64,000 nt of DNA from Chloroflexota bacterium (lineage in GTDB: Bacteria > Chloroflexota > Limnocylindria > Limnocylindrales > CSP1-4): assembly GCA_021787395.1 (NCBI GenBank), contig JAJYLZ010000003.1, positions 47,279 to 111,278 of the forward strand. Direction: 5' to 3'. Positions 10,956-16,075 of the stretch are shown here, piece after piece. Positions within the stretch are counted from its first letter, which is position 1. Each line of letters begins with the position of its first letter. Under the pieces are notes generated by a model. That model saw only the letters and a list, made by a program, of their open reading frames with translations. It was not told the DNA's origin and searched no databases. A program made the position numbers and the translations under genes.

Positions 10956-11642
10956 CTACGGCCCGACGAGCTGCGCGCCGCCCGTCACCGACACCGACTT
11001 GGCCTCGGGCGCGACCGCCAGCGTCACGATCGAGCCGCCGTCGACCGTGCCGGTCAACTGCTTGGAGACCCGCAGCGTCGCCTTCGCGCCGCCCGCCGCC
11101 GCGATCTTCCCCGTGTCCGCGGAGAGGTCGCCGAGCTCCGCCACGGAGCTGCCGAGGACGGTGACCGTCAGCTGGGTCACGGTGCCGATGCCCCTGAGGG
11201 TGGAGCCGCCCGACACGGACACCGCGAACGACGTCCCCATCGCCTCGACCGTCCCCGTCGCGCCGCCCTTGAGCGACACCGACCCCACCTTCGGCGACGT
11301 GATCCGGACCGTGACGGGCTTGTCGGACGTGAACCCGGGCGGCGCCACCGAGACGTCCAGCTCCGTCCCGCTGACCGTGGTCTGGACCAGCGGCAGCAGG
11401 TTCGAGGCCGCCTCGACGTCGACCGAGGGCACGGTCCCCGCGCCCAGGACCAGGTTGAGCGGGCCGTCCACGACCACCGCGGTGAAGTCGCCGAGGGTCC
11501 GGAAGTCCGTACGGTTGTCCGAGGCGGCGGGGACGGGCGTCGACGATGCGGGCGCCCCCGCACACGCGCCGAGGGCGAGCGCTGCGGCTGCACTCAGCGG
11601 GGCGAGGCGGACGAGGGTGCGGCCGGGTGAGCGCAGGGGCAT
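10956..11642 (-). CDS. lipoprotein with a DUF2807/GIN-like (putative adhesin head) domain
   Basis: Lipobox LALGAC. Repetitive G/T/V/S-rich beta-strand repeats typical of DUF2807. The internal ATG at 11642 has GGAG 8 nt upstream. Confidence 0.7.
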   Translation of the reverse strand: MPLRSPGRTLVRLAPLSAAAALALGACAGAPASSTPVPAASDNRTDFRTLGDFTAVVVDGPLNLVLGAGTVPSVDVEAASNLLPLVQTTVSGTELDVSVAPPGFTSDKPVTVRITSPKVGSVSLKGGATGTVEAMGTSFAVSVSGGSTLRGIGTVTQLTVTVLGSSVAELGDLSADTGKIAAAGGAKATLRVSKQLTGTVDGGSIVTLAVAPEAKSVSVTGGAQLVGP

Positions 11643-11798
11643 GAGGTGGGCTCCGATCCGCGGACGCACTGGGAGGATGCCGCGGAGCCGATCCGCGGGC
11701 CGAGGGCCGGAGGTGGCGCGGCCGCGGGCCGCAGGTCGCCGGATCGGGGGGCGACTCGGCCCCGCCGACGCGGGACGTGGCGGGCGGCGGGTCGGAGG

Positions 11799-12503
11799 CT
11801 AGCTGGCGCTGACCTTGGCGAGCGCCGCCCCGAGGGAGACCGTGGTGGCCTGGTCGAGGCCGCTGGTGACCATCAGCCAGCTGGGCTGCTCGCCGCGGGC
11901 GACGACGATCGCATAGCCGCCGGAGTCGATCGCCACCAGGGTCCCCGGCAGCGTGCCGAACGACGCGGCCCCGGCGTCGGTCCCCGAGGGCACGCAGCCG
12001 CTGCCGTCGGTGCAGAACGAGCCCTCCGAGAGCGACACGGTGGCGCCGTCCGGGCCCCTGTAGGTGATCGTCAGCTTGCCGCCGTTGGCCAGCCGGTACT
12101 GGCCGGCCGACACGACCCAGCCCTTGGGGAGCACCGCGCAGTACACCTCCCAGCTGACCGAGGCGGCGAGGTGCGCGTAGAACGTCTGGTTGTCGACGCT
12201 TCCGGAGCAGACGTCGGCCGTCCCGACCCCGGCCGAGGAGAACGGCGTGGGCGGCCCGGACGGGACGTCAGATGCGGCAGGCGCAGGGGACGCTCCCTCG
12301 GGGCTCGACCCGGGCTCCGACGACCCGGACGAGGCGGTCGGCGCGCCGCTCGAGCCGGCCCCGCCCGGCGTGCCGGGCGCCGCGCTGGCCGCGCCCGTCG
12401 GTGCTGCCGTCCCGGACGATCCGTTGCCGCCCGAGGGCGTGCTCCCGCCGCAGGCGGCGACCAGCAGGGCCACGAGGAGGGCGAGGGCAGGCGCGCGTCG
12501 CAT
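11799..12503 (-). CDS. lipoprotein, hypothetical. It has a low-complexity Ser/Gly/Pro linker followed by a globular C-terminal domain.
   Basis: ATG at 12503 gives MRRAPALALLVALLVAACGG, a lipobox. The upstream part of the 429-aa ORF is R/P-rich filler. It is divergent from the secreted-protein operon. Confidence 0.6.
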   Translation of the reverse strand: MRRAPALALLVALLVAACGGSTPSGGNGSSGTAAPTGAASAAPGTPGGAGSSGAPTASSGSSEPGSSPEGASPAPAASDVPSGPPTPFSSAGVGTADVCSGSVDNQTFYAHLAASVSWEVYCAVLPKGWVVSAGQYRLANGGKLTITYRGPDGATVSLSEGSFCTDGSGCVPSGTDAGAASFGTLPGTLVAIDSGGYAIVVARGEQPSWLMVTSGLDQATTVSLGAALAKVSAS

Positions 12504-12672
12504 GGCACAAGCGTACCCGCCGCGCGCCGCGCGTGCTGCCCGAGCCGCTGTCGCCGGCGACCGGCTGCCATCCCTCCGGGCCGCTCGCGTAAGGGCCCGG
12601 TAAGACCCCGGTGCGAGGATCTCGCGCACCGCCTCCTCCCGCCGCATCGCACCCCGCCGGAGGAGAGGCTCG

Positions 12673-13791
12673 ATGGAGCTTGCTAGACCGATCCGATGGC
12701 TGGTGCTGGCCGCACCCGTGGCCCTGGCCGCCGCTGGCGCCCTTGGCCAGCCGACGCCCACCGGGGTCGTACTGGCGGCGCAGCCGTCTCGGGCGCCGAC
12801 GCCGCAACCGCCGGTCGAGCGGTCGTGCCGGGCGGATGCAGCTTCGCCCGGCACCCCGGCCGGTGCCGCCTGGTATCGCCTGGACCCAATCCTGGACGCA
12901 TCCGGGACGCTCGTCGGCCGTCGGCTGACCGTCGGCCGGGGCGCATCCCGCTGGTCGGTGGCGCTGCCGCCCGAGTCCTTCGCCTCGGGGCCGTCGGAAG
13001 GGCTCGTCCTGGTCGGCGACGACGACGGAGGGCGCTCGCGCCTCCGCACACTCGACACGGCACGGGGCTGCTGGACCGCGGTCGGCACGTCGTCCGACGT
13101 CGTCCGGAGCGCGGTGCTGGCGCCGGGCGGAGCCCGCGTCTACGAGCACCGCGTCGATCGGGCGTCGCGCCGCGACCTCGGGGTCTGGGTGCGGGAGCTC
13201 GGCGCGGACGGGGCAGCGGTCGAACTCCTGGCGGGCCTACCGGCCGACCCCGCCTTCGGCCCGACGTTCACGACGAGCCTGCTCGCCGCCGATGACGGGC
13301 GCGTCGTGGTGAGCTCGTGCGGCGAGCGCGCCTGCCGGACCCGGGTCGTCGATCCGCGCACCGGCCGATCGTCAGCCGCCTCCGGCACCGGCCCGGCCGT
13401 CGGGATCGCCGGCCAGCGGCTGGTCGTGCTCGAGGCCTGCGGCGGCCTTCCGTGCGCGGTCGACTCGGTCGACCTGGCCACGGGCGCCGCCACGCCGCTC
13501 GATGCGGCGGAAGGCTTCGGCGCCATCGTGCCCGGCTCCTCGGGCGCGGTCGTGGTGGCGGCGCGCGGCGGGCTCGGGGTGCTGCGACTGGGCGACGGGG
13601 CGTCGGAGGCCGACGTTCCCGGCTCGTCGGGCCTCGCTCCCGTGATCCCCGCCTCGACCGCCGAGTCCGGGGCTGAGGCGCCAACCGGGCTGATCGCCGT
13701 GGCGCCCGGCGGGCGGGTGGCCGACCCGGCGGCCGTCCGCCTCCTGGACCCCTCCTCGCTCCAGCTGTCCGCATTCGAGGTGATCCCGTGA
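12673..13791 (+). CDS. secreted hypothetical protein
   Basis: GGAGGAGAGG RBS directly before the ATG at 12673. Signal peptide LVLAAPVALAAAGALG. Cys pairs are present. Its stop overlaps the next gene's start (GTGA). Confidence 0.65.
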   Translation: MELARPIRWLVLAAPVALAAAGALGQPTPTGVVLAAQPSRAPTPQPPVERSCRADAASPGTPAGAAWYRLDPILDASGTLVGRRLTVGRGASRWSVALPPESFASGPSEGLVLVGDDDGGRSRLRTLDTARGCWTAVGTSSDVVRSAVLAPGGARVYEHRVDRASRRDLGVWVRELGADGAAVELLAGLPADPAFGPTFTTSLLAADDGRVVVSSCGERACRTRVVDPRTGRSSAASGTGPAVGIAGQRLVVLEACGGLPCAVDSVDLATGAATPLDAAEGFGAIVPGSSGAVVVAARGGLGVLRLGDGASEADVPGSSGLAPVIPASTAESGAEAPTGLIAVAPGGRVADPAAVRLLDPSSLQLSAFEVIP

Positions 13792-14831
13792 ACGCACACC
13801 CCCCGCTCCGTCGCCTCGCCGCCGGTGCCGTCGCCCTGTGGCTGCTCGCAGCGTCCGCGGGCGCCGCGCTCGCAGCCACCCCGGATCCGACGATCCCGCC
13901 CGCCTGGCCCATCGACACGTCGCTCGCGTACAGCTGGGCGACCGGCGCGGTGCCGCCCTCGATCATCAGGACGGCGGTGGACGCCGCCGCGGCCGACGCG
14001 AACGGCAGCCGCGGATCGCGCGCCCCGTCCTTCGCCTACAGCAGCGCGGGGTCGAACGCTGTCTCGTACGGGACGAGCAACCCCTGCGGCGTCAACGGGC
14101 TCGCCTGCTTCTCGCGCGACCCGGCCCGGGGCTACTGGCACCTGTGGTTCCGCGAGAACGGCCACCGCTATGACTGGGGCACCCTGAGCTGGTGCGAGAT
14201 GACCGGCAGCCCCTACGGCTGCTTCCGGGCGGAGACCATCACCATCGACGAGTTCGGGCACGTGGCCGGGCTGGACCACCACGTGAACCTGGCCAGCGAC
14301 AGCGACTACGCGGACGCCGTCGTGCAGGCGTCCAGCCACGCGCGGGCGCAGGTGGGCTGGAACGCCAGCGCCTTCGGGCGCTGCGACGTGGCCACCCTCC
14401 AGCAGCTGTACGACGTGGCCTCCTGGACCACGCTGTACTCCACGTGTCTCGACGTCCCGACCAGCGTGACGCTGGGCGTCCTGTCGACGACCGCCAAGCT
14501 GGGCACGCTGGTGACGTTCACCGCAACCCTCCAGAGCGCCGGGACGGCGCGGCTCGCCGGCAACCCGATGGCGGGGCGCGCCGTCGTGCTCCAGCGGCTG
14601 ACGGGCACCACCTGGACGGACCTCGCCACGATGTCCCCGGGAACCACGGCCGGCACGTACCGGGCGGTGTACGCGCCCAGCGCAACGCAGGCCTACCGGG
14701 CCGTGTTCCGGAAGCCGGCCAACGAGGGCGTCCGAGCATCGACGTCGTCGTCGCTGACCATCGTCGTCGTCTGCACCACCAGTCCGTGCTCGCTGCAGGC
14801 GGGCACGGCCGGCACTGGCGGCTCGCGGTGA
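13788..14831 (+). CDS. secreted metzincin-like putative zinc metalloprotease with a variant motif
   Basis: Signal peptide LAAGAVALWLLAASAGAALA. The motif ITIDEFGHVAGLDHH resembles snapalysin/metzincin HExxHxxGxxH but has Asp at the first His position. The GTG start overlaps the upstream TGA. Confidence 0.65.
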   Translation: MNAHPPLRRLAAGAVALWLLAASAGAALAATPDPTIPPAWPIDTSLAYSWATGAVPPSIIRTAVDAAAADANGSRGSRAPSFAYSSAGSNAVSYGTSNPCGVNGLACFSRDPARGYWHLWFRENGHRYDWGTLSWCEMTGSPYGCFRAETITIDEFGHVAGLDHHVNLASDSDYADAVVQASSHARAQVGWNASAFGRCDVATLQQLYDVASWTTLYSTCLDVPTSVTLGVLSTTAKLGTLVTFTATLQSAGTARLAGNPMAGRAVVLQRLTGTTWTDLATMSPGTTAGTYRAVYAPSATQAYRAVFRKPANEGVRASTSSSLTIVVVCTTSPCSLQAGTAGTGGSR

Positions 14832-15439
14832 CCGGCCGCCGCCGAGCCGCCCTCCTCGGTGCCGCCGCGGGCCTGGCGGTCGTGGTCGCGGCGTGCACGG
14901 GGGGTGCGCCGCCCCCGTCCGCCACGGCCATCCCGCTCGGCGCGCCCGTCGCGGGGAGGGAGGTCGCGTCCGAAGCCTCCGATCCGGCCGGCGCGTCGAT
15001 GACCTCCGGGACGCCGTCCGCGCCCCCGGAGACGGCCGCACCGGCGTCGTCCGTCGCGCCGACCCTGCCGGACGAGCCCCCGTCCGGGCAGCTGCACGGC
15101 CTGGCCGGCGGGCGGGAGGCCCACGGGGAGCTCGGCTCCTACACCTGGGCCGACAGCGGCACGGACGCGCCCTGGGTGGTGGGCCCCGCGACGGGCACGG
15201 CGACCGAGGGCTCGTCCCTGACCGTGGCGTTCGAGAACCTCCAGCCGGTCTCGTGGACCGCGGCCTGGGCGGCGGTCTCCGGCGGCATGGCGGCCGCCCC
15301 GTCCGACGGCTCGGCCGGCCAAGGCGCCGTCGCCCTCCGGGCGCCGTCGACCGCCGGGGACTGGTCCCTGCGGGTCAGCGCCACGTTCGGCCCGGGGGCC
15401 AACGCCACCTACTACTGGCATCTGGCGGTGGCGCCATGA
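14828..15439 (+). CDS. lipoprotein, hypothetical
   Basis: GTG at 14828 overlaps the upstream TGA. The N-terminus is RRRAALLGAAAGLAVVVAACTGG, a lipobox. The upstream part of ORF 14192.. lies in another gene's frame and is rejected. Confidence 0.55.
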   Translation: MTGRRRAALLGAAAGLAVVVAACTGGAPPPSATAIPLGAPVAGREVASEASDPAGASMTSGTPSAPPETAAPASSVAPTLPDEPPSGQLHGLAGGREAHGELGSYTWADSGTDAPWVVGPATGTATEGSSLTVAFENLQPVSWTAAWAAVSGGMAAAPSDGSAGQGAVALRAPSTAGDWSLRVSATFGPGANATYYWHLAVAP

Positions 15440-15535
15440 GCCCCGGACATGCCGCGCCGCCGGCGCGTCGAGCGCGGCCGGCGGCGGTCAGGCAGCGAAC
15501 CGGGAATGCGGGCCGGGACACCGGCCCGCCCGTGG

Positions 15536-15814
15536 TCAGGCGATGGCAGCAGCTCCGGTCGCGTTGAAGATCGACGTCTGCGCGTCCTCGGGCAGCATCA
15601 CGCCCATGATCTTCTGAAGCGCGAGGAGGTGAACGCAGGAGCCCCAACTCTCGAAGTAGTGGCACGTGCAGTGCCACACGCCGGCATCGAGACTGACGTG
15701 ATGGGTGTCGTTGTCCCCACGGAACGTCAGGGCGATCCGCTCGATCGAGATCCGGTCCAGCTCCCGAGCGTAGCGATTCGCCTTCTCGACCTTGCCGATG
15801 AGAGAGGAGTGCAT
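15536..15814 (-). CDS. small SWIM-type zinc-finger protein (about 92 aa)
   Basis: Motif WHCTCHYFESWGSCVHLLA, a CxCxnCxH SWIM signature. It sits in a locally lower-GC islet between convergent operons. ATG at 15814 with GGAGG about 10 nt upstream. Confidence 0.5.
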   Translation of the reverse strand: MHSSLIGKVEKANRYARELDRISIERIALTFRGDNDTHHVSLDAGVWHCTCHYFESWGSCVHLLALQKIMGVMLPEDAQTSIFNATGAAAIA

Positions 15815-16075
15815 CGTCGCAGTACCTCCAGTCGCCCTGTGCGGGGCGCCCACGAGGGCCGCCGTCCGGTCGGGTCCGCTCGGCCGGTGATAGCGGTCGC
15901 AGGACCAAGCCTACACCCCCGGCGCCCCCGTGGCACCCCCCGAAGCGGGCCGCCGAGGGCCGGACGATCGGCACCTCCGACGACGGCCAGGCGGCGTCAC
16001 GAGGACAGCGCGCCCGGCCCGCGCGAGCGGGCGCCAGCGTCCGCCGGGCGGGTCAGGCCCCGTGCGCGGAGCGGG

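What the first reader, a model, noticed from the sequence alone, without database searches (positions are those of the whole stretch)
11799..15439. Divergent lipoprotein plus a translationally coupled operon of three secreted proteins with a non-canonical metzincin motif
Three consecutive plus-strand genes encode a signal-peptide protein, a signal-peptide protein bearing the motif DEFGHVAGLDHH, and a lipoprotein. The genes are joined by GTGA stop/start overlaps. The DEFGHVAGLDHH motif is a near-perfect snapalysin/metzincin zinc site, except that the first His is Asp. A lipoprotein gene with a long low-complexity linker is divergent from them. A DUF2807 adhesin-like lipoprotein lies just upstream. 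None of the five has a recognised function. An Asp-for-His substitution could mean an altered metal ligand set or a catalytically dead protease homologue, that is a pseudoprotease or inhibitor partner.
Basis: partly seen in the sequence, partly recalled or inferred. Interest (0 to 1): 0.55.

Follow-up and report, generated by a model that had tools for sequence, protein, structure and literature searches.

The report
Split matrixin-like protease with Asp zinc site
Three tightly coupled genes of an uncultured soil and freshwater bacterium (Chloroflexota, Limnocylindria) encode an unannotated relative of matrix-metalloprotease-type enzymes that has replaced two hallmark active-site residues together, and whose usual front domain is made as a separate protein.

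Summary
Genes A (12673-13791), B (13788-14831) and C (14828-15439) are real. They are joined by GTGA overlaps and encode two signal-peptide proteins and a lipoprotein. A divergent lipoprotein and a DUF2807 lipoprotein lie upstream.

B is a true metzincin-fold protein. A confident model (pLDDT 93) matches MMP and karilysin catalytic domains, and an Ig-like domain follows.

The Asp in DEFGHVAGLDHH is not an error. It is fixed across a large clade restricted to Limnocylindria-type Chloroflexota (215 species genomes). In 157 full-length domains, Asp always occurs with Val in place of the Met-turn methionine and with His after the third ligand. The catalytic Glu and the other two His ligands are invariant.

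Sister proteins at the same chromosomal position keep the canonical HExxHxxGLxHP motif and the Met-turn. They carry a gene-A-like domain fused in front of the catalytic domain (hhalign 99.8%). So A plus B is the split form of a single canonical protease.

Most likely reading: an exported, probably still catalytic metallohydrolase with an Asp/His/His metal site. Protein A would be an in-trans N-terminal (prodomain-position) partner, and lipoprotein C a tether or inhibitor.

It is a new variant of a known kind. Activity, metal and substrate are untested.

The parts
12673..13791 (+). Gene A: exported 372-aa Cys-rich protein. Residues 43-232 are homologous to the N-terminal (prodomain-position) domain of fused canonical orthologues.
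   Evidence: About 200 homologues and six invariant Cys. hhalign against the fused proteins gives probability 99.8%, E 7e-28. No Pfam or PDB match; only faint beta-propeller hints.
13788..13791 (+). GTGA overlap: gene A stop codon and gene B start codon.
   Evidence: Read directly. An NTGA overlap is present in 72 of 75 related loci.
13788..14831 (+). Gene B: 347-aa exported metzincin-fold protein. It has a signal peptide, a catalytic domain and an Ig-like domain, and no prodomain.
   Evidence: More than 700 homologues. 339 representative clusters. Eight invariant Cys.
13788..13874 (+). Signal peptide of B (residues 1-29, cleavage inferred at ALA|ATPDP).
   Evidence: Sequence reading. P32 and P34 just after the cleavage site are invariant.
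13875..14465 (+). Catalytic domain of B (residues about 30-226): five-stranded sheet plus three helices.
   Evidence: AlphaFold model with pLDDT 93.1 and pTM 0.91. Foldseek top hits are MMP-3, MMP-1 and karilysin, E down to 2.5e-6, with 158 hits at E<=1e-3.
14247..14282 (+). Metal-site motif DEFGHVAGLDHH. Asp154 (GAC, 14247-14249) replaces the first His ligand. Glu155 is the catalytic base. His158 and His164 are ligands. His165 is the clade-specific residue after the third ligand.
   Evidence: Asp154, Glu155, His158, His164 and His165 are invariant in 35 homologues. The column analysis covers 157 domains.
14322..14324 (+). Val179 (GTG) at the position of the Met-turn methionine (DAVVQ here, D[ST][VI]M[HQ] in canonical relatives).
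   Evidence: Alignment A3. Val in all 133 Asp-type domains, Met in 23 of 24 His-type domains.
14466..14777 (+). C-terminal Ig-like domain of B.
   Evidence: pLDDT above 90 in the full-length model. Foldseek hits Ig-like domains. Some homologues carry PF16640.
14828..14831 (+). GTGA overlap: gene B stop codon and gene C start codon.
   Evidence: Read directly. A 4-nt overlap occurs in 28 related loci; most of the others have the start within about 30 nt.
14828..15439 (+). Gene C: 203-aa lipoprotein (lipobox Cys23 at 14894-14896). A Pro/Ala/Ser/Thr-rich linker is followed by a conserved C-terminal domain of about 115 aa (15053-15436).
   Evidence: The lipobox and linker are conserved in related loci. 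Alignment A5. No Pfam or PDB match. The orthologue next to the fused protease has two copies of the domain.
11799..12503 (-). Divergent 234-aa lipoprotein: a syntenic neighbour, probably not part of the unit.
   Evidence: Its homologue lies about 3.5 kb upstream of A in most loci, with a transporter in between.
10956..11669 (-). DUF2807 lipoprotein: a neighbour, not part of the unit.
   Evidence: Pfam PF10988, E 7e-22. Present in only some related loci.

Best explanation
A-B-C is a conserved, translationally coupled operon of Limnocylindria-type Chloroflexota. It encodes an extracytoplasmic metallohydrolase system derived from a canonical matrixin/serralysin-like metzincin.

**Shown.**
- B has the metzincin catalytic fold followed by an Ig-like domain.
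- In its clade the first zinc-binding His became Asp. In strict association, the Met-turn Met became Val and the residue after the third His became His.
- The general-base Glu and the other two His ligands are invariant.
- Orthologues at the same chromosomal position keep HExxHxxGLxHP and the Met-turn. They carry a gene-A-like domain fused N-terminally, so A and B are the two halves of one protease.

**Inferred.**
- All three proteins are exported through Sec, and C is lipid-anchored on a long flexible linker.
- B binds a catalytic metal through Asp154/His158/His164, with Glu155 activating water, and remains a hydrolase, most likely a peptidase.
- Signal-peptidase cleavage gives B the same mature N-terminus (xPxP) that prodomain removal would give in the fused form.
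- A, made in 1:1 coupling just before B, acts in trans as the N-terminal domain does in cis: as a folding, latency or substrate-recruiting partner.
- C tethers the complex to the membrane or restrains it, in the way operon-encoded lipoprotein or periplasmic inhibitors restrain other M10-type enzymes.

The substrate is unknown. The single-copy, class-wide, syntenic conservation suggests an envelope housekeeping role rather than an accessory one.
For: - **Fold.** The model has pLDDT 93.1. Foldseek probability is 1.00 to MMP-3, MMP-1, MMP-2, MMP-8 and MMP-13, karilysin and a serralysin-type protease.
- **Sequence.** There are weak but consistent Pfam hits to Peptidase_M10 (14 of 22 domains), Astacin, M7, M43 and M66. 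A PDB profile search aligns the motif to the BMP1 zinc site. The C-terminal helix RCDVAxLQxxY resembles the helix I recall as conserved in matrixins (the matrixin consensus is from memory).
- **Conservation.** Asp154, Glu155, His158, His164 and His165 are invariant in 35 homologues of 51-79% identity. Among representative clusters, 72 have Asp and 38 have His.
- **Coupled changes.** Asp/Val/His-His versus His/Met is a perfect association over 157 domains, and Glu is present in all of them.
- **Origin.** In an NJ tree the Asp type is essentially one clade nested among His types, with an intermediate (P0258) near its base.
- **Split versus fused.** A profile of A hits the N-termini of the long His-type proteins. 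hhalign gives 99.8% for A and E 7e-83 for B against 18 fused proteins. The fused gene occupies the same syntenic slot and is followed by a C-like lipoprotein.
- **Coupling.** The trio is kept in 82 loci. The A/B NTGA overlap is kept in 72 of 75 loci.
- **Distribution.** 215 species genomes, all Chloroflexota/Limnocylindria-type.
- **Precedent for C.** Potempins are lipoprotein inhibitors of 98-132 residues encoded next to their peptidase genes, including the MMP-like karilysin (PMC9890683). The PotA-karilysin complex 8b2q is among the fold hits.
Against: - No activity, metal content or substrate is known for any member. All are 'hypothetical protein'.
- Two defining metzincin features are lost at once: the first His and the Met-turn Met. 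This is also what a pseudoenzyme could look like.
- B has no cis prodomain, which would be unproblematic if it were inactive.
- The folds of A and C are unknown, so their roles rest on the gene fusion, on position and on analogy.
- The B-C 'fusions' found in databases are gene-calling artefacts and give no support.
Confidence: 0.6

Rival explanations
1. B is a pseudoprotease. It would be a non-catalytic binding or scaffold protein that kept the metzincin fold but lost zinc-dependent catalysis when the first His and the Met-turn Met were replaced. A and C would be its binding partners.
For: - Two clan-defining residues are replaced together.
- B has no prodomain, so no latency device is needed.
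- Natural metzincin homologues with altered zinc motifs that lack activity are documented (snake-venom PII homologues, PMC5086652).
Against: - Those documented dead homologues lost the catalytic Glu or the third His. Here Glu155, His158 and His164 are invariant in all 157 domains.
- New residues are fixed around the site (His165, Asn167, Tyr/Phe174, Gln180), which points to selection on a working site.
- From general knowledge, Asp is a competent zinc ligand in metallopeptidases (snapalysin His/His/Asp, thermolysin His/His/Glu).
Confidence: 0.22
2. The Asp/His/His site is a 2-His-1-carboxylate site that has shifted metal preference (Mn, Fe, Co or Ni) or substrate class (a non-peptide bond). 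B would then no longer be a zinc endopeptidase but would still be an enzyme.
For: - Ligand 1, the Met-turn base and the residue after ligand 3 are remodelled in a coordinated way.
- A second His adjacent to the site is fixed.
- The locus lies beside a riboswitch-controlled corrinoid-type ABC transporter in 63 of 67 relatives.
Against: - Nothing in the data speaks to metal identity.
- The overall cleft-forming architecture is that of endopeptidases.
- The transporter is absent from this window and from four other loci, although the trio is kept.
- The riboswitch is on the transporter's strand only.
Confidence: 0.13
3. The Asp is a sequencing or assembly error, or a strain-level variant, of an ordinary HExxH protease.
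Against: - Asp is present in all 35 aligned homologues, in 72 representative clusters and in 133 of 134 domains of the clade, from hundreds of independent assemblies.
- His-type relatives are at most about 40% identical and have a different architecture.
Confidence: 0.01

Closest known systems
Matrixins and serralysins (MEROPS family M10; Pfam Peptidase_M10), including bacterial karilysin
   Same: - Same catalytic fold: best Foldseek hits, target-normalised TM 0.6-0.68.
- The active-site helix carries xExxHxxGLxH, with the C-terminal helix D..x.LQ..Y.
- The canonical sister proteins read HExxHxxGLxHP, as I recall for serralysins, and reach 23.9 bits against a Pfam cut-off of 24. A few carry a precomputed PF00413 hit.
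   Different: - The window protein scores below Pfam reporting.
- The first ligand is Asp, and Val replaces the Met-turn Met.
- His follows the third ligand (from memory, Ser in MMPs and Pro in serralysins).
- I saw no cysteine-switch-like propeptide in A or B; this was by eye, not by a pattern search.
- It has four disulfides and a C-terminal Ig-like domain.
- The N-terminal domain is a separate gene product.
   Same: - Small secreted bacterial metzincin from a high-G+C organism.
- Short spacing between the zinc motif and the Met-turn position.
- One carboxylate among the three ligands.
   Different: - From general knowledge, in snapalysin the Asp is the third ligand (HExxHxxGxxD). Here it is the first, and the third is His.
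- Pfam Peptidase_M7 matched only 1 of 22 domains, at E 0.045.
- From general knowledge, snapalysin keeps the Met-turn Met.
Astacins (M12A)
   Same: The profile search aligns DELGHVLGLDHH.. to HELGHVVGFWHEH of BMP1/TLL1. Pfam Astacin matches 8 of 22 domains weakly.
   Different: It has no EXXRXDRD or SIMHY motif, no family-specific Glu and no aspartate-switch prosegment (motifs as defined in PMC9848320).
Potempin-KLIKK peptidase pairs (Tannerella) and AprI/Inh-serralysin pairs
   Same: A metzincin gene is adjacent to a gene for a small exported partner. Potempins are lipoproteins of 98-132 residues (PMC9890683). Gene C is a lipoprotein with a domain of about 115 aa.
   Different: - No sequence or fold similarity could be tested.
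- C is downstream, not upstream, of the peptidase gene.
- C has a long linker of about 55 residues.
- An inhibitory role is pure analogy.

Membership tests
Metzincin clan | Catalytic fold: five-stranded sheet, three helices, active-site helix B followed by a Gly turn | tested here: met
   The model (pLDDT 93.1) has strands 18-23, 54-57, 63-68, 79-84 and 89-95 and helices 31-47, 121-132 and 171-181. Foldseek gives 158 PDB hits at E<=1e-3; the 50 listed are MMP, karilysin or serralysin-type catalytic domains.
Metzincin clan | Extended zinc motif HExxHxxGxx(H/D) with three protein ligands | tested here: not met
   The window has DEFGHVAGLDH. Asp154 replaces the first His, and this is fixed in the clade. 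Glu, the second His, Gly and the third His are present. The sister clade has the full motif.
Metzincin clan | Met-turn methionine beneath the metal site | tested here: not met
   Val179 aligns with the Met of D[ST][VI]M[HQ] in His-type relatives. Val is present in all 133 Asp-type domains.
Metzincin clan | Zinc binding and peptide-bond hydrolysis | not testable with these tools
   No experimental data exist for any member.
Matrixin/serralysin family M10 (Pfam PF00413) | Score at or above the Pfam gathering threshold | tested here: not met
   No hit for the window protein. Trimmed domains give a best E of 0.0065. The best His-type relative scores 23.9 bits against a cut-off of 24.
Matrixin/serralysin family M10 (Pfam PF00413) | Family-specific residue after the third His (Ser or Pro; assignment from memory) and a cysteine-switch propeptide (matrixins) | tested here: not met
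   His165 follows His164, whereas His-type relatives have Pro. B starts its catalytic domain directly after the signal peptide, and I saw no cysteine-switch-like segment in A or B when reading the translations; no pattern search was run.
Snapalysin family M7 | HExxHxxGxxD with Asp as the third ligand; Pfam PF02031 | tested here: not met
   The third ligand is His164. PF02031 matched 1 of 22 domains at E 0.045.
Astacin family M12A | HExxHxxGFxHExxRxDRD plus SIMHY | tested here: not met
   The motifs are absent from alignments A1 and A3. Only weak Pfam and PDB matches were found.
Operon-encoded lipoprotein inhibitor of a metzincin (potempin-like), for gene C | Lipoprotein with a domain of about 100-130 residues encoded next to the peptidase gene | tested here: met
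   Lipobox Cys23 and a conserved domain of about 115 aa. The gene overlaps or abuts B in related loci.
Operon-encoded lipoprotein inhibitor of a metzincin (potempin-like), for gene C | Binds and inhibits the cognate peptidase | not testable with these tools

The most novel reading that the evidence does not exclude
A whole bacterial class uses a 'metzincin without its Met'. In this reading the His-to-Asp change at ligand 1 and the Met-to-Val change are a functionally compensated pair that creates a 2-His-1-carboxylate site with altered metal preference or chemistry. The enzyme's N-terminal latency or chaperone domain has been released as a separate, translationally coupled protein (A), and the complex is held at the membrane by lipoprotein C. 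Given the near-universal neighbourhood, it might serve metal-chelate or corrinoid acquisition.
Probability: 0.15. Interest if true: 0.75.

Novelty: new variant of a known kind. Interest (0 to 1): 0.5.

Why it matters
The metzincin clan is defined by HExxHxxGxxH/D and by the Met-turn methionine. [quoted passage not shown] This clade offers a natural experiment:
- It replaced the first His ligand and the methionine together, in perfect association.
- It kept the catalytic Glu.
- Canonical orthologues survive at the same locus, and one intermediate sequence exists.

Swapping Asp/Val for His/Met in both backgrounds would test directly what the methionine does for the ligand sphere.

The split versus fused forms of the N-terminal domain also give a clean system for asking how a prodomain-position module works in trans.

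Finally, this assigns a fold and a likely activity to a core, unannotated three-gene cluster of Limnocylindria.

Tried and rejected
- **Single-sequence searches.** Single-sequence PDB and Pfam/NCBIfam searches of B, A, C and the divergent lipoprotein found nothing significant.
- **First model.** The full-length model from 35 close homologues was poor in the catalytic domain (pLDDT 68). Its fold search returned only Ig-like domains. Re-modelling the catalytic domain alone with 45 diverse sequences solved this.
- **Gene A.** Profile searches against PDB and Pfam gave only faint beta-propeller hints (PQQ_2 in 2 of 30 sequences; a lactonase at E 0.45). I do not claim a fold.
- **Gene C.** No PDB or Pfam match. 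A faint PPC hit (E 0.012) on the two-domain orthologue is not used.
- **Promoters and terminators.** The consensus scan of 11600-16000 found none, which is uninformative for this phylum.
- **B-C fusions.** I considered them as Rosetta-stone evidence and rejected them. P0254, P0256 and P0387 contain frameshifted stretches and an internal lipoprotein signal.
- **B12 link.** I considered a functional link to the B12 transporter. The synteny is strong (63 of 67 loci). But the riboswitch is on the other strand, and this window keeps the trio without any transporter homologue. It is kept only as a low-probability reading.
- **Other rejections.** Sequencing error is rejected. Snapalysin membership is rejected.
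- **Literature.** A search for a DExxH metzincin found no paper.


Full report
**1. What is in the sequence**

The window has about 75% G+C. The proteins' closest relatives come from metagenome-assembled Chloroflexota named Candidatus Limnocylindrales/Limnocylindria.

Between 10956 and 15439 there are five genes:
- A DUF2807 lipoprotein on the minus strand (10956-11669; Pfam E 7e-22).
- A 234-aa lipoprotein on the minus strand (11799-12503; true ATG at 12503).
- Three plus-strand genes: A (12673-13791, 372 aa), B (13788-14831, 347 aa) and C (14828-15439, 203 aa).

A and B have N-terminal signal sequences. C has a lipobox (VVAAC, Cys23) followed by a Pro/Ala/Ser/Thr-rich linker.

Both junctions are GTGA stop/start overlaps. 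DEFGHVAGLDHH is residues 154-165 of B, bases 14247-14282.

The divergent lipoprotein and A, B and C have no Pfam or NCBIfam family.

**2. The genes are real and form a unit**

B has more than 700 homologues in the 90%-clustered protein collection and 339 representative clusters at 50% identity. A has about 200.

A scan of one genome per species found relatives of B in 215 genomes. All 80 listed records are Chloroflexota-type MAGs, apart from one labelled Patescibacteria group.

In 82 fetched loci, A, B and C occur in the same order wherever the contig leaves room. An NTGA overlap joins the stop of A to the start of B in 72 of 75 loci. B and C overlap by 4 nt in 28 loci and are mostly within about 30 nt in the others.

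There are no paralogues of A, B or C in the window.

**3. B is a metzincin-fold protein**

A first full-length model was good only for the C-terminal Ig-like domain, and its fold search returned only Ig-like folds.

I modelled residues 28-226 with a deliberately diverse alignment of 45 domains. This gave pLDDT 93.1 and pTM 0.91, with a five-stranded sheet and three helices. The DEFGH segment lies in the second helix.

Foldseek against the PDB gave 158 hits at E<=1e-3. The 50 listed are catalytic domains of MMP-3, MMP-1, MMP-2, MMP-8, MMP-9, MMP-11 and MMP-13, bacterial karilysin, or a serralysin-type protease. Probability was 1.00 and target-normalised TM 0.6-0.68.

Sequence evidence agrees:
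- Trimmed domains hit Pfam Peptidase_M10 (14 of 22, best E 0.0065), Astacin, M7, M43 and M66 weakly.
- A profile search of the PDB aligns the motif to the zinc site of BMP1/TLL1.
- The conserved C-terminal helix RCDVAxLQxxY resembles the helix I recall as conserved in matrixins. That consensus is from memory.

**4. [quoted passage not shown] Among representative clusters, 72 have Asp and 38 have His at the first ligand position.

In 157 full-length domains the association is perfect:
- Asp at ligand 1 always occurs with Val at the position aligned to the Met-turn methionine (DAVVQ versus D[ST][VI]M[HQ]), with His after the third His, and nearly always with Asn two residues further on and Tyr/Phe upstream of the turn.
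- The 24 His-type domains read HExxHxxGLxHP-like, and 23 of them have Met at the Met-turn position.
- Glu and the second and third His are present in all 157.

In an NJ tree the Asp type is essentially one clade nested within His-type diversity. One sequence near its base, P0258 (HELGH..GHH..SDW..TIMH), has intermediate characters.

So this is not a sequencing variant. By the textbook definition (HExxHxxGxxH/D plus Met-turn; PMC9848320, PMC5086652), the window protein fails two defining features while being unambiguously homologous to proteins that meet them.

The His-type relatives themselves lie just under the Pfam M10 threshold (23.9 against 24 bits). A few carry precomputed PF00413 hits. 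All are annotated as hypothetical.

**5. Gene A is the detached N-terminal domain of the ancestral-type protease**

A profile of A matches the N-terminal 200-270 residues of the long (470-613 aa) His-type proteins.

Profile-profile comparison with 18 such proteins gives:
- Probability 99.8%, E 7e-28, for A residues 43-232 against fused residues 46-234. The three Cys and the ELGVWR motif are shared.
- E 7e-83 for B residues 21-338 against fused residues 245-570.

The fused proteins have a consistent length in many independent assemblies. There is no internal signal peptide.

The fused gene lies at the same syntenic position as A-B:
- It is divergent from a Peripla_BP_2/FecCD/ABC_tran operon.
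- It is followed, with a 4-nt overlap, by a lipoprotein carrying two copies of the gene-C domain.
- Then comes the same small SWIM-like gene on the opposite strand.

The junction ..LV SPRPVP.. in the fused form corresponds to the signal-peptide cleavage site ALA|ATPDP of B. The split B would therefore emerge with the N-terminus that prodomain removal would otherwise create. This last point is inference.

**6. Gene C**

Its relatives share a lipobox, a low-complexity linker and a domain of about 115 residues (GxLGSYTW..GSDAPWI...W.A.WAPV...G.WSL.V...F....A.YYWRL). There is no Pfam or PDB match.

Apparent B-C fusion proteins in the databases are frameshift or gene-calling artefacts.

C's role as a membrane tether or an operon-encoded inhibitor rests on analogy. 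Potempins are lipoprotein inhibitors of 98-132 residues encoded beside their peptidases, including the MMP-like karilysin (PMC9890683).

**7. Mechanism proposed**

- **Shown:** fold, homology, coupled substitutions, split/fused relation, translational coupling, export signals.
- **Inferred:** Asp154/His158/His164 hold a catalytic metal and Glu155 activates water. A acts in trans as the N-terminal domain does in cis. C anchors or restrains the complex at the outer face of the membrane.

I favour a remodelled but working site over a dead one for two reasons. The general base and two ligands are invariant, and new residues are fixed around the site. Documented dead metzincin homologues, by contrast, lost the Glu or the third His (PMC5086652). 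From general knowledge, one carboxylate plus two His is a common catalytic zinc site.

A pseudoprotease (about 0.2) and a change of metal or chemistry (about 0.1-0.15) remain open.

**8. Surroundings**

In 63 of 67 related loci with enough sequence, a btuFCD-like ABC transporter lies between the divergent lipoprotein and gene A. In the two loci scanned with Rfam (L001, L002) an AdoCbl riboswitch precedes it on its own strand.

This window and four other loci lack the transporter, and the window has no homologue of it at all. The divergent lipoprotein and DUF2807 are thus syntenic neighbours, not demonstrable parts of the system.

**9. Novelty and score**

The family is unannotated and confined to one class of Chloroflexota. 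It is a new variant of a known kind, not a new kind.

Three features would interest a metallopeptidase specialist:
- the natural, perfectly coupled replacement of the first zinc ligand and the Met-turn methionine;
- the canonical orthologues and the intermediate that are available for comparison;
- the fission of the N-terminal domain into a separate, coupled gene.

Interest is 0.5.

Noticed in passing
window 15536-15814 (-): A 92-aa protein with a CxC...CxH pattern has only a faint Pfam SWIM hit (E 0.23). It lies convergent to gene C. It is 77-98% identical across nearly all of the 82 related loci. That is more conserved than MetK (72-92%) and far more than A, B or C (30-79%). Function unknown.
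   Followed up: partly
L001 1638-4767, L002 1673-4783; absent from window 12504-12672: A Peripla_BP_2/FecCD/ABC_tran transporter lies divergent from gene A in 63 of 67 related loci and next to the fused His-type orthologues. In L001 and L002 an AdoCbl riboswitch (Rfam RF01482, 50.8 and 57.8 bits) precedes it. It is missing from this window, which has only a 169-bp spacer and no homologue within 64 kb, and from L010, L011, L014 and L038.
   Followed up: yes
protein P0258 (351 aa, ENA contig of 3.5 kb): This is an intermediate active site. It has His at ligand 1 and Met at the Met-turn, but already has the His-His doublet and an SDW segment (SDY in the Asp clade). It has the short unfused architecture and sits near the base of the Asp clade in an NJ tree.
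   Followed up: partly
proteins P0254, P0256, P0387 and several long Asp-type entries (P0250, P0368, P0386): Database proteins that look like B-C fusions, and probably the long Asp-type A-B entries too, are artefacts of frameshifts or missed stops at the 4-nt overlaps. The three B-C entries keep an internal lipoprotein signal, and P0254, P0256 and P0250 contain out-of-frame stretches. They should not be read as domain fusions.
   Followed up: partly
L083 7719-8768, L085 7677-8591: In the lineage with the fused canonical protease, the downstream lipoprotein carries two tandem copies of the gene-C domain (349 and 304 aa) instead of one.
   Followed up: partly
window 11799-12503 (-): The divergent lipoprotein has homologues in about half of the related loci, usually about 3.5 kb upstream of A. 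It has no Pfam family, and its conserved Cys-containing C-terminal domain is uncharacterised.
   Followed up: partly
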